Assembly (NCBI GenBank): GCA_963727095.1
Contig: CAVSEQ010000002.1
Location: 434,797-498,796, forward strand
DNA length: 64,000 nucleotides
Source: Candidatus Aminicenantes bacterium
GTDB taxonomy: Bacteria; Acidobacteriota; Aminicenantia; Aminicenantales; Saccharicenantaceae
Direction: 5' to 3'
Shown here piece by piece: positions 30,001-42,000 of the stretch; the first letter of the stretch is position 1, and each line of letters starts with the position of its first letter. A program made the position numbers.

Positions 30001-33000
30001 GGAGCGCGCGTGTACTATGCGATGGCCCGGGACGGTCTCTTTTTCAAGTCAACGGGCAAGCTCAACAGAAAGTCCGTGCCGGGGACGGCCCTCGTTGTCC
30101 AGTGTATCTGGGCCTCGCTCCTCTGCCTGTCGGGAACGTACAGCCAGCTCCTGGACTACGTCGTTTTCGCGGTCCTCATCTTCTTTGTCCTTGTCGTCTC
30201 GGGGATCTTCATCCTGCGGAAAAAGAAGCCGGACGCCGAAAGGCCCTATAAAGCCTGGGGATATCCAGTCGTCCCGGCTATCTACATCCTCGTCGCGGCC
30301 GCGATCGCTGTCGACCTCCTCATCTTCAAGACGGGATACACGGTCCCGGGATTGATCATCGTCCTCATCGGCATTCCGGTTTATTTCCTACGGAAGAAGC
30401 TCGCTAAGCCGGGCGACTCGAATCCCCAATCACCGGTCGCCGAAACGCAAGAGAACTAAACGGACTATTTTTTGCGGTCGGCGACGAGCACCCCTGCGGC
30501 CATATACTCCCGGGGCGAGAATTCCTGGACCCAAACGCGGATCGATTCGAGCGGCGCCCCGATGGAGTCATGGACGGCATCGGTCACCGCCGTTAGCAAG
30601 GCTTTCTTTTGTTCGTCCGTCCGTCCTTCGAGCAGGTGGATTTCAACGAGAGGCATGCGGGCCTCCTTTCGCGGCCATTTTACCAAACCGCGCCCAGCTC
30701 CGAAAGGGCCGCCGATTGACTTTCCGCCCGGCTTTTGATAAACAAATACACGAAAGTGGGTTGTCATGGAGATCAAAACCCGGGACATCAACGACATCGC
30801 GGTTTTTGAGATCGCCGGCGAGATCCGCCGCACTGACACGCCGGAGATAACGCTCCACCAGCTCGTCAAGTCCAACCTGGACCGCGGCAAGCGGAACATC
30901 CTCCTCAACCTCAAGGACGTCGGGTTCATCGACAGCTTCGGCGTAGGAGAGATCCTGGCCAGCTATATCTCGACTCAGAACCTGGGCGGAAAGCTCAAGC
31001 TGGCCGAAATCTCAAAGAAGCTGCATCTCGTCTTCCAGGTTACAATGCTGTATCGGGTCTTCGAGATCTTCGATACCGAGGATGCCGCGCTCAAGAGCTT
31101 CGCAAAGTCTTGACGTCCTCTCGCCTGGACAAAGGAGAGCCTTCGTTGACGGATGGCCGTTTGCACAGGTTCTTCTCCCGTTTTGCCGATATCCGTCCGG
31201 ATGAAACGAGGGCGGCGCTCTATCTCTTCATCTACTTTTTTTTGGTCACATTTTCGATCTATGTCGTCAAACCGGTCAAGGAAAATTTTCTGATCGGGGT
31301 CACTCCCGCGTGGTGGCCGTATGCAGACCTCCTCACGGCCGCCCTGATCGGTTTCGTCATCGCCATCAACGCCAGGCTCCTCAACAAGCTGCCGCGCCGA
31401 ACCTACGCCTCGGCGACCGCCTTTTTTTTCCTGATCAACGTCCTCGTCTTCTGGTTTGTCTTCTCCGTGAACCGAAGGAGCATGTTCATCTCGCCGACCC
31501 AGGACGCCTCCGGCCTGTTGGGCCTTATTTCCTTCCAAGTCTTAATCAGAAATTCCTGGCCGCTGCCGGTCTTCGTTTTCAGCCTGTGGGTCGACATTTT
31601 CATCGTCATGTCCGTGACCCAATTCTGGATCGCCGTCAACGACCTCTTCGACCCGCATCAGGCCAAGCGGACGATCGGCTTTTTCGTCACCGGCGGGCTG
31701 GCCGGCGGCATCGCCGGATCCTTGGCGACCTCTCGTCTTGCTCAGGCCATCGGCCCGGCCAACCTGCTTCTTATCTGTCCCTTCATCCTCCTGCTCTCCG
31801 TGGGCATCATCCATCTGGTATATGAGGAGCAGACGAAGCTCCAGGGAGTGGGGGAGACTGGCGTTTACGCCCGGGCCGGGACTCGGGTCGGGTACCTCGA
31901 GAGTTTAAGGGCGGTCGGCAGCAGCCGGTACCTCAGGCTGCTCGCGGGAGTGCTTGCCTCGGCTATGGTCGTGGGAACTCTCATCAACTATCAATTCAAG
32001 ATCGCTATCAAGGATGCCATTCCCAACGCCGCCGTCCGAACGTCCTTCCTCGGCACTTTTTTCCTGGCCATCCTTGTTTTATCCTTGGCGTTCCACCTGG
32101 CGGCGACAGGGCGGATCTTGAGGCGTTTTGGGATCCGCCTGGCCCTGCTCCTGGCTCCCGCCGCCCTCCTTCTCGGAGGGCTGTCCGTCTTCCTCCTGCC
32201 CGCGGCCGCTGGCCTTATGGTCTGGGCCTGCCTGGTCAGGGGTGGCGACAAAGCCCTGGACACGACGACCAGTCAGTCCGTCCGCGAACTGCTTTACATC
32301 CCCATTCCGGCCGAAATTAAGTATAAAGCGAAGATCTTCATCGATATGTTCGTCAACAAATTTGCGACAGGGCTGGCGGCCGCGCTGTTCTGGATCCTCT
32401 ATCGGGTCTCATCCTTCGCCTACAAAACTCCTTCCGTCCAGGTCCGCGAGGTCGCGCTGGTCATGATCGCCTTCGCGCTGACCTGGGGCGTTCTCATCTG
32501 GGTTATTTACGCAGAGTACCTGGGCATCGTGAAGAAAGATCTCACTCGGCGATGGCAGGACGGGAACCAGATCGTCGCGGACAACGTGGACGTGGAGGCG
32601 GCCCGGCTTGTTTTTGACACGCTCCAGAGCCGCGGCAAGAGCTCGGCGCTCTACGCCATGAATCTTTTCGAGCTCGTCCAGAAGGAAAAGCTGACGCCGG
32701 AACTCATGTCCGTCATCGCCCTCAAAGAGGATGAAATCACCGCGCGCTCGATGGACGCCCTCCTCGACGTCGGGGGCGAGATTTTTTACCCCGGGATTGA
32801 GGAAACCCTGGCCGACGAGGATTTCGAGGTGCAGATCAAGGAAGTCTTGGCCCTAGACACCTTCAAGACGGTCATGAAAAAGCACCTGGGGGATGTTGTC
32901 GGGAGCAAATCGGAGTCCGAGGTAGAGCGGATGGAGGCCGCCAAGCTCATGGGCATGATGGAGGCCTCGCCCGATGTTTCCCGCTTTCTCGGCCGGCTGC

Positions 33001-39000: not shown

Positions 39001-42000
39001 CTTTTGACCACGGCCGAATCCTTGTCCACGAGGAGCATGGCTTCCCGGAGGGGCTTGAGGATGTAGTAGGCGAGGAGGAGGAGGAAGACGTTCAAAGCCA
39101 GGAGGAGGGCTTTCGGAGCTTCTCCCTGACGGATGTCCGCGAAGAGCCTGAGGATTCTGTAGGGGAAGGAAAATGACGATGCCTCGTGGGCCGGTCTATG
39201 TCCGTATCCCGCTTCCGCCATCGCCCTCTCCTTCGCGGCCTTCCTAGAAAAGGACGGCCTCTTCTCCGCGCTCCTTGATCAGAGCGGCGATCGTCTTGAC
39301 GAGAAGCCTCCGGCGCGCCTGGAGGCCCTGAATTTCGCCTTGAGAAAGATAAGGCGCCATGATTTGCGAAACTGTCTTGTCCTCCCAGGCGGCAAGTTTC
39401 CGGTAGAGTTTGCGCGAGCATCTGTCGATCTTGCACGCTAGGGCGTCTTTGTCGCCGGGCGCGAAGGCTTGGGAAAAATCGACCCGGAAGACCGCCCAGT
39501 CGTCCTTGCGGATAAGCACGTCCTGGTCGTTGGCGCAGGTATCGTTGACCAAGCTGATGAAGACGCGGAGGTCGGCCATGGCCCGGCTAAAAGACTCCGG
39601 GTCCGCCGGCTTGACCTGTCCGGACTTCCTGTCCGATTCGGAAAAGCTGTTTTCGATGAAGAGCGACAGGGAGCCGGGCATATCTTCGATCTGGCGCTCA
39701 ACCGCAGCCGGGACGAGGCTGAGTCCGAGAAATTTGCTGATTTCATAAGCCGCCAGCTCGTAGTGATAGCTGTCGGCCAGGGGGCTGGGCCTGCGGCGGT
39801 CGATGTACTTGAAGATGGCCCTGCGTGTGTCATGCCCGTCACTGAGAACCACTCTCCACGGTTCGGTTCTTCCCGGCATATCCGTTTTTCGGACGTTCGT
39901 GATAGGGGCCGTCTTTAGAAACTTCTCGACGTTCTCGAAGGCGGGAGGCGGAGCCGCATCGTGCGTCGTCTTCATGCTCGGTTCGCCGCCCGCTTCCTCC
40001 GGCTCCCAGAGGCTGAACCGGCCTTGGTCGATGACAAGCGCCGTGGTGACACCGCCGTAGGCATGGGAAATCCCCGTATCGATGATGTACACCTTACCGT
40101 TGTACCGGCTGATGTTGCCGAGGTCGCGGATGACGGGGCTCCCGCCTCCGTACGCGAAATAGTCGTGGCCGATGACCATGAAGCGCGCCTGTAACCTCGC
40201 CAGAATCCGGTTGACCTCGGCGGAAGATGCCGTTTCGTCCCTATAGCCCAGACCGCGGAACCAGAGCGGGCTCTCGGAGTCATAAACGATCGTGGGCCGG
40301 AAGGCGCTCGAAATATCCTGGGGATTCCTCCGAAACCCCTGGAAAAACTGGAGCTCCCTGCGCAGCGTTGAGTTGATATCCTCGATCTTTATGCCGGAAT
40401 ACTTATCGCTGACGCCGGCGTGAGCGAACACGATGTCGTTGATCTTGATCACGGCGTTCTTTTGCAGAAGCCATGGGCCGTAGGCGGAGTTGAAACCGGC
40501 GACATAGGCCCGGCGCGCATCGCCGCTCCTGCGCTCGAGGGACTGCCAGAAATCCCTGAGCGCCTGGTTCGTTGCGAGATCGAGACCCAGCTTTTCCACC
40601 CGTGCCCTCTCGGGATCGGAGAGCCGGGCCAGGAATTCCTTCTCTCTGGCCGTCCGGACGTCTGCAGGGAGGAATGAGACGAACTGCTCGACCGTGACAT
40701 AGTCGGGATAATCGAGCGCGATGCCCGTGATATTCATTTCCTCGTGATTCCCCAGGAGAACGTGGACCATCCCGCCGGCAGCCGCGGCCTCCTTTTCGAG
40801 CCGGATGAGGAGGTCGAGGATGTCCTTGGCCTGAGTGCCCCTATCCAGTATGTCGCCCGTCTGGACCAGGTGTGTCTTCCCCCCCGACCAACGGAGGTCC
40901 GCATCGATAATGCCGGTTCCTTTAAGGATGACGACGAAGTTGTCATAATCGCCGTGGAGATCCCCGACCGCCACGATCTTCTCCACGTTGGTCCAGATGC
41001 AAGGGATCGCGGCAGCGCGGGCGAAGAAAGAACAAGCGGCGAAAAGCAGGCAGGCCCAGATGAAACGGCGCAAGCGTCCTCCGGATGATGACGTGATGGT
41101 TCCTTCTCCGCGCTCAGTCGGCATGGATCACCTCAATTTATAGATGATTTCCCTTTGATAATCAATCCCCGATTTGACCCCGAACAAGCACCGGCATTCA
41201 TGCCGGGGACTCGAGGGGTTGACTCCCGACGAGAGCTCTTGTTATGCTGGGCGTCGCATGGGCAATCATCGACAGGAGGTGGGCGATGTCTGCTCCCACA
41301 GAAGGGTATTATCGGGGAGGCATTCGGACCGTCTGGGCGATCTTCTTGGCCGCAGGCCTCGCCGCGAGCACAGCGGCGGCTTCGCCCGCGCCCGCTGCAA
41401 AGGGACTCGTTTCTCGGAACCCGGCCCGGGTCAAACTTGGTGTCGAGGTTCTCCTCGAGAAGCGCCTCGACCTCGTCAAGGGGAAGAGAGTCGGGCTGAT
41501 CACCAATCCGACGGGCGCCGACAGCCGGCTCCGCAGCACCATAGACCTCCTTCGGGCCAACCCGGAGGTCCGCCTGGTCGCCCTCTACGGACCGGAGCAC
41601 GGCGTCCGGGGTGACGTCCAGGCGGGTGAGTATGTCCCTTATTATTTCGACGACAAATACAAGCTTCCGGTTTTCAGCCTCTACGGCCAGTCGATGAAAC
41701 CGGAGCCCGGCATGCTCAAGAATATCGACGCCTTTATGCGGTCTTTCGATACCAAGTCCGCGGGCAAAAGACCTGAGGCGGCGATGGTCAAGGACATCGA
41801 CGTCTTGATCTATGATATCCAGGACGTCGGCACGCGCGTCTATACCTACATCGCCACGATGGCCTTCGCCATGCAGGCCTGCGCCGAAAGCGGCATCGAC
41901 TTTGTCGTCCTGGATAGGCCGGCCCCCATCAACGGCGTCGACGTCGAGGGTCCCATCGTCGAATACCCCAGCCACAGCTCTTTTGTCGGGCTCTATCCGA

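What a model noticed while it worked through the whole genome (the two positions that open the first line are those of the whole stretch)
30766..41124. Secreted Fam20C-like kinases, a secreted phosphatase-kinase and NTT nucleotide transporters in one conserved locus
An operon encodes two signal-peptide proteins with the Fam20C (secretory-pathway) kinase fold, a signal-peptide Shelph-type phosphatase fused to a third such kinase domain, and an NTT/TLC nucleotide transporter; facing it is a STAS - NTT-HEAT - FHA/GAF/PP2C - RsbW partner-switch operon. The grouping predicts an extracytoplasmic phosphorylation system fed with ATP by NTT carriers in a free-living bacterium.
Evidence so far: Model of g00507 (pLDDT 88) has Fam20C/Fam20A as top ten Foldseek hits, E 6e-8, TM 0.6; invariant K, YE, NxDR and DHS kinase-type residues in 51 sequences; N-terminal hydrophobic leaders in homologs. 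Kinase genes in 22 of 26 order genomes, mostly 3 copies; kinases+phosphatase+NTT linked in 8 of 10 fetched loci of 6 families, and with the partner-switch genes in most. TLC family in 75% of the order against 3% of bacteria.
(Added by a program. Inside this text positions count along the whole contig: contig position 434,797 is position 1 of the stretch shown here. "Call 12" and the like, gene names such as g00115 and contig names such as C1 are that model's own, and its searches are not shown. The text may have been shortened before it was handed on; [...] marks where a part breaks off. The agent that wrote the report below was given it as the finding of a first reader that could run no searches.)

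Follow-up and report, generated by a model that had tools for sequence, protein, structure and literature searches.

The report
Exported kinase circuit with nucleotide carriers
Uncultured sediment bacteria keep or lose, as one block, genes for predicted-exported relatives of animal Fam20 kinases, a predicted-exported phosphatase, two nucleotide-carrier-family membrane proteins and a cytoplasmic phospho-switch, which likely form an undescribed system that would feed ATP into the periplasm to phosphorylate targets there.

Summary
The locus is real. All eight genes are present; three carry single-base frameshifts, probably assembly errors. In 61 Aminicenantales genomes, kinase, phosphatase, NTT, PP2C and RsbW occur in the same 50 and are missing from the same 11; STAS is in 49 of those 50. 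In 201 Acidobacteriota, all 48 kinase-bearing genomes have an NTT (26 of 153 others do) and 46 have the phosphatase (9 of 153). K1 and K2 have intact catalytic residues, signal-peptide-like leaders and a Fam20 fold (Z 20.7; PI4K-II 18.4).

Linkage outside the order is stronger than stated. Both carriers fail the canonical ATP/ADP-exchanger residue test, so ATP export is inferred only.

Best reading (0.5): switch-gated nucleotide supply to a periplasmic kinase/phosphatase cycle. No paper found in ten searches. The scan noted this system before on other genomes (ten notes).

The parts
30716..30742 (+). Conserved sigma-70-type promoter-like site upstream of STAS
   Evidence: TTGACTTT upstream of 38 of 64 STAS homologues; the full pattern occurs once in the window and in 0 of 100 shuffles. 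The pattern was derived from these loci; function not tested.
30766..31113 (+). STAS (RsbV/SpoIIAA-like) phospho-acceptor
   Evidence: PF01740 46.6 bits and TIGR00377 over cut-off; the DS serine is invariant in 39 of 39; in 49 of 50 locus-positive and 0 of 11 negative genomes.
31110..33765 (+). NTT-HEAT fusion: TLC membrane domain plus about 400-aa all-helical cytoplasmic tail; frameshift near 33443 in this assembly
   Evidence: TLC 56 bits, HEAT_2; intact 854-aa homologue spans both ORFs. Tail model of homologue L032: pLDDT 85.7, only generic HEAT/ARM matches. No cNMP-binding family in 39 of 39 tails.
33804..35481 (+). FHA-GAF-PP2C (SpoIIE/RsbU-type) phosphatase; frameshift near 33865
   Evidence: FHA, GAF and SpoIIE over cut-off. 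Orthologue (E<1e-60) in the same 50 of 61 genomes; only weak domain hits (E>=3e-8) in 6 of the 11 negatives.
35478..35921 (+). RsbW/SpoIIAB-type serine kinase
   Evidence: HATPase_c_2 80.9 bits; same 50 of 61 genomes, one weak 7e-4 hit among the 11; tail to tail with the last kinase gene in 20 of 20 loci.
35936..36764 (-). K1, exported Fam20-like kinase (NEDRH...DHS); frameshift near 35990 alters the last ~17 residues
   Evidence: leader test.
36814..37653 (-). K2, exported Fam20-like kinase (NxDRTQQN...DHS), 46% identical to K1
   Evidence: Model pLDDT 95.4; Foldseek and VIA-align rank Fam20 first; profile hits Fam20A at E 1.9e-5.
37713..39221 (-). Single-domain NTT/TLC-family membrane carrier with a non-canonical pocket
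   Evidence: TLC 51.3 bits; profile hits solved NTTs 9j3n/9j3j at E 5e-16 and 2e-9; residue counts; same 50 of 61 genomes.
39244..39966 (-). K3 pseudokinase domain (C-terminal part of the fusion): catalytic Asp replaced, metal- and ATP-site residues kept, three conserved Cys
   Evidence: A separate gene with its own leader in most other loci (32 of 37 standalone copies).
39967..41124 (-). Signal-peptide-like leader plus Shewanella-like (Shelph) PPP metallophosphatase
   Evidence: Closest solved structures are the Shewanella phosphatase 1v73/2z72/2zbm, E 8e-35; PPP motifs in 69-70 of 70; leader in 70 of 73; same 50 of 61 genomes.

Best explanation
Eight co-inherited genes likely form a periplasmic phosphorylation circuit: NTT-family carriers would move ATP out and spent nucleotide back in, the predicted-exported kinases K1 and K2 would phosphorylate a periplasmic or envelope target, and the predicted-exported phosphatase would reverse it. 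Shown: co-inheritance, linkage, fold, and intact K1/K2 and phosphatase motifs. Predicted: export (my leader heuristic). Inferred: (1) direction and substrate of transport, about 0.6 for ATP supply; because the single NTT has an acidic residue where AtNTT1 needs Lys for ATP, NTT-HEAT is my guess for the exporter and the single NTT for the return of ADP or a less charged nucleotide. (2) The target is a protein, about 0.5; a glycan or lipid is open. (3) K3 is a nucleotide-binding regulator that tunes the phosphatase it is fused to or adjoins, or activates K1/K2 as Fam20A does Fam20C. (4) The cytoplasmic STAS/RsbW/PP2C switch gates the carrier through its HEAT tail and not through a sigma factor, about 0.5, so that ATP leaves only when the switch allows.
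For: Order (n=61): kinase, NTT (46), phosphatase (47), PP2C orthologue (51) and RsbW (74) in the same 50, not found in the same 11 (all at least 90% complete; at least three separate lineages by the tool's genus and family labels); STAS 49 of 50 and 0 of 11 (52). Phylum (n=201): 48 of 48 kinase genomes have TLC against 26 of 153; phosphatase 46 of 48 against 9 of 153. Outside the order, kinase within 10 kb of TLC in 15 of 46 (about 1.2 expected by chance) and within 5 kb of the phosphatase in 26 of 46. Leaders: K1/K2 160 of 169, standalone K3 32 of 37, phosphatase 70 of 73; controls STAS 1 of 61, RsbW 0 of 80, PP2C 0 of 41. K1/K2 keep Lys, Glu and catalytic Asp (176 each) and the DH pair (177) of 177. 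Fam20 Z 18.9-20.7. purF, pyrB and F1-ATPase subunits in 5 of 5 genomes, so nucleotide theft is not needed. No SigB/F/G-class sigma over cut-off in 5 of 5. STAS directly precedes an NTT-HEAT gene in most loci.
Against: Neither carrier has the canonical residue set. Single NTT: K155-equivalent Lys in 58 of 66, but E245 is Gly, E385 is Gly (Glu one place on in 61) and K527 is Asp in 66 of 66. NTT-HEAT: no Lys at K155, and K527 is variable (Thr 25, Lys 21, Asp 9 of 71). In AtNTT1, K527E cannot bind ATP and E245K barely exchanges (PMC3306366, passages). One divergent NTT (Simkania NTT4) moved no nucleotide in assays (PMC5381601). No substrate gene is evident in the locus. PI4K-II is only about 2 Z units behind Fam20 and CtkA scores 16. 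Outside the order, 31 of 46 genomes show no kinase within 10 kb of a listed TLC match, and many copies stand alone. No activity, location or expression data exist. Kin are not independent, so the counts overstate the number of events.
Confidence: 0.5

Rival explanations
1. Inward signal relay. The exported enzymes make or destroy a small phosphorylated signal from an outside molecule. NTT or NTT-HEAT imports or merely binds it as a transceptor, and the HEAT tail passes the signal to the PP2C/STAS switch, whose output lies elsewhere.
For: Non-canonical carrier pockets. The HEAT tail is a pure scaffold. PP2C has FHA and GAF input domains. NTT-HEAT often comes as a tandem pair. Elsewhere NTT-HEAT carries a cNMP-binding domain (L139; PMC5381601).
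Against: Catalytically intact exported kinases still need a phosphate donor, and they are never found without an NTT (48 of 48). No sigma target for the switch was found. The switch lay near the kinase in only 1 of 20 outside-order loci, while the kinase-phosphatase-NTT association persists.
Confidence: 0.2
2. Scavenging. The phosphatase releases phosphate or nucleotides from outside substrates, the NTTs import them, and the kinase folds trap or bind substrate, perhaps with a donor other than exported ATP.
For: All characterised NTTs import or exchange nucleotides (PMC5381601). Bacterial PPP phosphatases have broad specificity (PMC535813). A phytase-like/SdiA-regulated propeller gene sits inside 8 of 20 loci and only in locus-positive genomes (20 of 50, 0 of 11).
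Against: De novo purine and pyrimidine genes are present. Strictly conserved ATP-type active sites and up to 11 kinase matches per genome are hard to explain. The propeller is missing from this genome.
Confidence: 0.12
3. The kinase fold does other chemistry with exported nucleotide (AMPylation or another nucleotidyl transfer), which the metallophosphoesterase removes.
For: Kinase folds are known to transfer groups other than phosphate (PMC7948968, passages). K3 keeps two metal-site Asp and has Cys at the catalytic position in 62 of 74. The carriers may prefer a less charged nucleotide.
Against: K1/K2 keep every canonical phosphotransfer residue, and their nearest folds are all true kinases.
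Confidence: 0.08
4. The kinases are effectors delivered into other cells, where ATP is plentiful, and the NTTs serve energy parasitism.
For: CtkA, a cell-translocating kinase, shares the fold (Z 16). NTTs are classic parasite carriers (PMC5381601).
Against: Ordinary cleavable leaders; no recurring secretion machinery among 104 neighbours scanned; 2-6 Mb genomes with ATP synthase and nucleotide synthesis; a cognate exported phosphatase and a pseudokinase fit a reversible circuit.
Confidence: 0.05

Closest known systems
Fam20 secretory-pathway kinases (Fam20C protein kinase, Fam20B xylosylkinase, Fam20A pseudokinase)
   Same: Best match by sequence profile (E 1.9e-5) and fold (Z up to 20.7, 228-235 residues aligned); signal peptide; active paralogues plus a pseudokinase in one family.
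   Different: Bacterial; a minimal 256-residue core aligning to only part of the 349-435-residue Fam20 chains; 15-18% identity; below the Pfam Fam20C cut-off; K3 lost the catalytic Asp whereas Fam20A lost a Mn-binding Glu (PMC7948968); substrate unknown; gene-linked to its own phosphatase and carriers.
Type II PI4-kinases, Helicobacter CtkA, SCO1664 family (TIGR03843)
   Same: Same fold clade (Z 17.3-18.4 and 16.0-16.3); TIGR03843 hit E 1e-12.
   Different: Below all curated cut-offs. These are cytoplasmic or host-translocated (recalled), without linked carriers or phosphatase.
Shewanella-like phosphatases (Shelphs)
   Same: All PPP motifs, the (I/L/V)D(S/T)G motif and a long GNHE-HAG insert; nearest solved structure is the Shewanella enzyme. 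The Toxoplasma Shelph is in the ER (PMC9769683, abstract).
   Different: Adjoined or fused to a Fam20-like domain; substrate untested.
NTT/TLC carriers and NTT-HEAT(-cNBD) fusions (Major, Embley, Williams 2017, PMC5381601)
   Same: TLC domain, HEAT fusion, occurrence in free-living bacteria including one Aminicenantes sequence; function unknown there too.
   Different: No cNBD here; a STAS/PP2C/RsbW module stands in its place (inferred); altered pocket residues. The paper's main text mentions no linked kinase or phosphatase.
RsbV-RsbW-RsbU / SpoIIAA-AB-E partner switches
   Same: STAS with invariant Ser, GHKL serine kinase, PP2C with sensor domains.
   Different: No SigB/F/G-class sigma found (0 of 5 over cut-off); locked to transporter and exported-enzyme genes.
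CotH spore-coat kinases (recalled, no call)
   Same: Bacterial kinase related to Fam20C acting outside the cytoplasm proper.
   Different: Different family (no CotH Pfam hit at E<=0.1); no dedicated nucleotide carrier or phosphatase known to me.

Membership tests
Fam20 kinases | Fam20-type atypical kinase fold | tested here: met
   Top ranks in Foldseek (E 8e-9, TMq 0.66) and VIA-align (Z 20.7, rmsd 3.0, 228 aligned).
Fam20 kinases | Catalytic Lys, Glu, DR-Asp and metal Asp (K1/K2) | tested here: met
   176, 176, 176 and 177 of 177; motifs align with Fam20A NMDRH and DNARGF.
Fam20 kinases | Catalytic Asp (K3) | tested here: not met
   Asp in 0 of 74; Cys 62, Arg 4, Ser 4, gap 4.
Fam20 kinases | Signal peptide | tested here: met
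   My own hydropathy and charge heuristic, not SignalP: 160 of 169 against 1 of 182 controls; Ala/Gly/Ser at -1 in 122 of 144.
Fam20 kinases | Pfam PF06702 cut-off and full-size domain with insertions | tested here: not met
   13 bits against 26.8; 256 aa against 349-435. Homologue of Fam20, not a member.
Fam20 kinases | Phosphorylates SxE proteins (Fam20C) or xylose (Fam20B) | not testable with these tools
   Needs an assay.
Type II PI4K / SCO1664 | Curated family cut-offs | tested here: not met
   PF00454 17.4 against 27.1 bits; TIGR03843 47.6 against 172.4.
Shelph PPP phosphatases | GDxHG, GDxxDRG, GNHE, H(A/G)G, (I/L/V)D(S/T)G; insert between GNHE and HAG | tested here: met
   69-70 of 70 for each motif; GNHE at residue 125 and HAG at 235; definitions from PMC535813.
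Shelph PPP phosphatases | Protein phosphatase activity | not testable with these tools
   Needs an assay.
NTT/TLC family | PF03219 domain over cut-off; similarity to solved NTTs | tested here: met
   51.3 and 56 bits against 21; profile E 5e-16 and 2e-41 to 9j3n.
Canonical ATP/ADP exchangers (AtNTT1 type) | K155, E245, E385, K527 and TIGR00769 cut-off | tested here: not met
   41.5 and 45.4 against 387.2 bits. The mapping is mine: a constant offset of 84 fits all four residues in chain 9j3j_A. Alignments are near 20% identity, HMMER put a 3-residue gap at K527 for the single NTT, and E385 is recalled.
NTT-HEAT fusions (PMC5381601) | N-terminal NTT plus C-terminal HEAT repeats | tested here: met
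   HEAT_2 in 39 of 39 tails.
NTT-HEAT-cNBD subtype | Fused or adjacent cyclic-nucleotide-binding domain | tested here: not met
   No cNMP family in 39 tails; tail model is all helical; the next gene here is PP2C.
Rsb partner switch | STAS with Ser, RsbW kinase, PP2C phosphatase | tested here: met
Rsb partner switch | Cognate SigB/F/G-class sigma factor | tested here: not met
   0 of 5 genomes over the TIGR02980 cut-off, best 137 against 234 bits; four are single contigs, 92-93% complete. A divergent sigma target is not excluded.

The most novel reading that the evidence does not exclude
These bacteria run a eukaryote-style secretory-compartment phosphorylation system in the periplasm. NTT carriers run as ATP exporters under a partner switch that gates the carrier's HEAT tail directly. 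Fam20-like kinases, a Cys-tuned pseudokinase regulator and a Shelph phosphatase write and erase periplasmic protein phosphorylation. This would be a bacterial precedent for the Fam20/Shelph kit of the ER and Golgi.
Probability: 0.3. Interest if true: 0.93.

Novelty: categorically new. Interest (0 to 1): 0.8.

Why it matters
The periplasm is taught as an ATP-free compartment without kinase signalling (own knowledge). A widespread module of exported kinases that is never found without a nucleotide carrier (4877 protein clusters at E<=0.001; 48 of 201 Acidobacteriota) makes ATP export and periplasmic phosphorylation directly testable. It would give a first function to NTT-HEAT fusions and to NTTs of free-living bacteria, left open in PMC5381601. 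It would supply close bacterial relatives of Fam20, a family reviewed as animal (PMC7948968), and show a partner switch acting on a transporter.

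Tried and rejected
STAS:HEAT-tail complex prediction never ran because the queue was full: no verdict. The wide VIA-align search was busy; the second-look mode was used instead. Fold search of the HEAT tail gave only generic repeats. No RNA holder was listed for the locus and no run held half of it, so expression is untested; the laid contigs are of relatives or low depth. Inositol-1-phosphate synthase is in 3 of 5 locus-positive and 5 of 5 negative genomes: not co-inherited, and uninformative on a lipid substrate. No sigma-54 motif upstream of STAS, the phosphatase or RsbW (101). 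Pfam scan of 104 neighbours of outside-order kinases showed no further recurring partner. ESM Atlas gave only same-family clusters and one Myxococcota-dominated cluster with 22% Fam20C Pfam. Rejected: chance linkage, cytoplasmic location, energy parasitism, K3 as an active kinase, and true pseudogenisation, since homologues are intact (123; the neighbouring permease at 27416-28907 is split too). The AtNTT1 structure paper was not held, so its pocket residues could not be checked. No supplements were read.

Full report
Observation. The window holds two convergent operons. Plus strand: STAS, NTT-HEAT, FHA-GAF-PP2C, RsbW. Minus strand: phosphatase-K3 fusion, NTT, K2, K1. Each is the only close copy in the genome, apart from one further PP2C domain. 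Named homologues place the organism in Candidatus Aminicenantales. NTT-HEAT, PP2C and K1 carry one-base frameshifts. An intact relative aligns across all three, and contigs of relatives lack one base at 33443 and 35989/35990. I read these as assembly errors; no reads of this organism were available to prove it.

The kinases. A 40-sequence K1/K2 profile hits Fam20A (E 1.9e-5), hydra Fam20 and Fam20C among PDB sequences, with matching EIAAYRLD/EIAAFHLD, NEDR/NMDR and DHSRSF/DNARGF motifs and the last helix. The K2 model (pLDDT 95.4) ranks Fam20 first in Foldseek and VIA-align: Z 18.9-20.7, then PI4K-II 17.3-18.4, CtkA 16 and HipA 12. Curated family cut-offs are not reached. Among 177 non-redundant K1/K2 domains from loci L031-L131 plus the window's K2, the Lys, Glu and catalytic Asp are kept in 176 each and the DH pair in all.

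K3 is different. The catalytic Asp is present in 0 of 74 (Cys in 62), while Lys/Arg (73), Glu/Asp (69), an Asp at +5 (74) and the DFS Asp (74) remain. All 62 with Cys at the catalytic position have a second Cys 34 residues on, and the 7 lacking that second Cys lack the first; a third Cys is in 71. That suggests a disulfide or a metal site, but kin are not independent and no coordinates were available. K3 is therefore a predicted pseudokinase. It is fused to the phosphatase in 5 of 20 loci (one of them frameshifted) and is otherwise a separate gene. Outside the order, phosphatase fusions carry an intact kinase (L142, L144). The family is large: 4877 clusters at E<=0.001 and 636 at 1e-30. Of the best 150, 31 partial ones were dropped; of 119 full-length, 111 have a hydrophobic N-terminus, 94 the catalytic motif and 20 a fused phosphatase.

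Location. My heuristic (11-residue hydropathy at least 2.0 with net positive charge before it; not SignalP) passes 160 of 169 K1/K2, 32 of 37 standalone K3 and 70 of 73 phosphatases, against 1 of 61 STAS, 0 of 80 RsbW and 0 of 41 PP2C. Conservation starts at a Gln after an A-x-A-like site. The phosphatase is a Shelph: nearest structures are the Shewanella enzyme (E 8e-35) and all motifs defined in PMC535813 are present.

Co-inheritance. In one sample of 61 order genomes, K2, NTT (46), the phosphatase (47), the FHA-GAF orthologue at E<1e-60 (51) and RsbW at E<=6e-23 (74) are found in the same 50 and not found in the same 11. STAS is in 49 of the 50, missing from one 83%-complete genome, and in none of the 11 (52). 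The 11 are at least 90% complete and fall in at least three lineages: 4 of 5 genomes of genus g4, family f5, and two genera of f6. So the partner switch belongs to the system. In 20 order loci that I chose as best hits on long contigs, kinase, phosphatase and an NTT gene share a 20-kb window in 19. RsbW faces the last kinase in all 20. Eight have this window's arrangement; eleven have STAS at the other end, divergent from the phosphatase; one is unresolved.

Beyond the order. In 201 Acidobacteriota, 48 have the kinase. All 48 have a TLC match, two of them marginal, against 26 of 153 others. Forty-six have the phosphatase, against 9 of 153. In the 46 outside the order, a kinase lies within 10 kb of a TLC match in 15 (about 1.2 expected; a lower bound, as contigs are short and 15 TLC matches were unlisted) and within 5 kb of the phosphatase in 26. 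The switch genes were near the kinase in only 1 of 20 outside-order loci. The core is thus kinase + phosphatase + NTT, and the switch is a lineage-specific control.

The carriers. Both are TLC members and match the solved NTTs. A constant offset of 84 maps AtNTT1 K155, E245, E385 and K527 on chain 9j3j_A. The single NTT keeps the first (58 of 66) but has Gly, Gly (Glu one place on in 61) and Asp at the others. NTT-HEAT lacks the first, has Asp/Asn at the two Glu sites, and varies at K527. In AtNTT1, K527E cannot bind ATP but binds ADP, and E245K barely exchanges (PMC3306366). This is the main result against a simple ATP/ADP exchanger, though it rests on alignments near 20% identity. The HEAT tail is an all-helical scaffold without a cNMP domain, whereas an outside-order NTT-HEAT has one fused (L139). 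Five genomes checked have purF, pyrB and F1 subunits, and none has a SigB/F/G-class sigma over cut-off.

Mechanism. An exported kinase with an intact ATP site needs a nucleotide source, and it is never found without an NTT. I therefore favour export of ATP and return of spent nucleotide by the carriers, phosphorylation of a periplasmic target by K1/K2, reversal by the Shelph, tuning by K3, and gating of NTT-HEAT by STAS (0.5 overall). Transport direction, substrate, K3's role and STAS-HEAT binding are all inferred; the complex prediction could not be run. Rivals: inward relay or transceptor (0.2), scavenging (0.12), other chemistry (0.08), effector or parasitism (0.05).

Literature. Read: PMC5381601 (parts 1-3 of 4, the whole main text); passages of PMC7948968, PMC3306366, PMC535813 and PMC9758233 (which calls FAM20 eukaryote- or animal-specific in a graph limited to Legionella, human and amoebae); abstract of PMC9769683. 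Ten searches (listings only) showed no paper on this module; subscription journals are not covered and no supplements were read. CotH and the role of E385 are recalled. The scan noted the same module on other genomes in ten notes. I had formed my reading and the switch co-inheritance result before seeing the matching notes; they are not independent support.

Verdict. A real, tightly co-inherited and apparently undescribed system made of known parts. Interest 0.8.

Noticed in passing
L035-L037, L040, L042, L045, L047, L049 (e.g. L047:10525-11358): A ~280-aa SdiA-regulated/phytase-like beta-propeller gene, with a lipoprotein signal hit in one copy, sits on the opposite strand between NTT and K2. 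It is in 20 of the 50 locus-positive genomes and 0 of 11 negative ones, and was not found in this genome. Candidate substrate or accessory enzyme.
   Followed up: partly
L039, L042, L043, L044, L046, L050, L146: Two NTT-HEAT paralogues in tandem in many relatives, one only in this genome. They could act as a heterodimer.
   Followed up: no
window 37584-37582 and 36695-36693 (mature starts of K2 and K1): Mature K1/K2 begin with a near-invariant Gln after the predicted cleavage site, as expected for pyroglutamate formation (recalled). Glutaminyl cyclase was not searched.
   Followed up: no
window 27416-28907: An amino-acid permease gene is split by a frameshift, a fourth break within 9 kb, consistent with indel errors in this assembly.
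   Followed up: partly
window 41244-44290: NamZ (exo-beta-N-acetylmuramidase) and a glutamine-synthetase-like gene flank the phosphatase in 8 of 20 loci, NamZ alone in two more. A link to peptidoglycan turnover was not tested.
   Followed up: no
L140, L147: Outside the order, further kinase-domain copies lack the catalytic motif (IDFTRAF type); 25 of 119 full-length representatives also fail my motif test. Pseudokinases may have arisen more than once.
   Followed up: partly
L125: A record titled as an archaeon (Hydrothermarchaeota) holds a K2 homologue at 58% identity on a 10.5-kb contig; binning error or transfer.
   Followed up: no
window 33757-33786: A sigma-70-like site (10 of 12 matches) lies just upstream of the PP2C gene, hinting at an internal promoter.
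   Followed up: no
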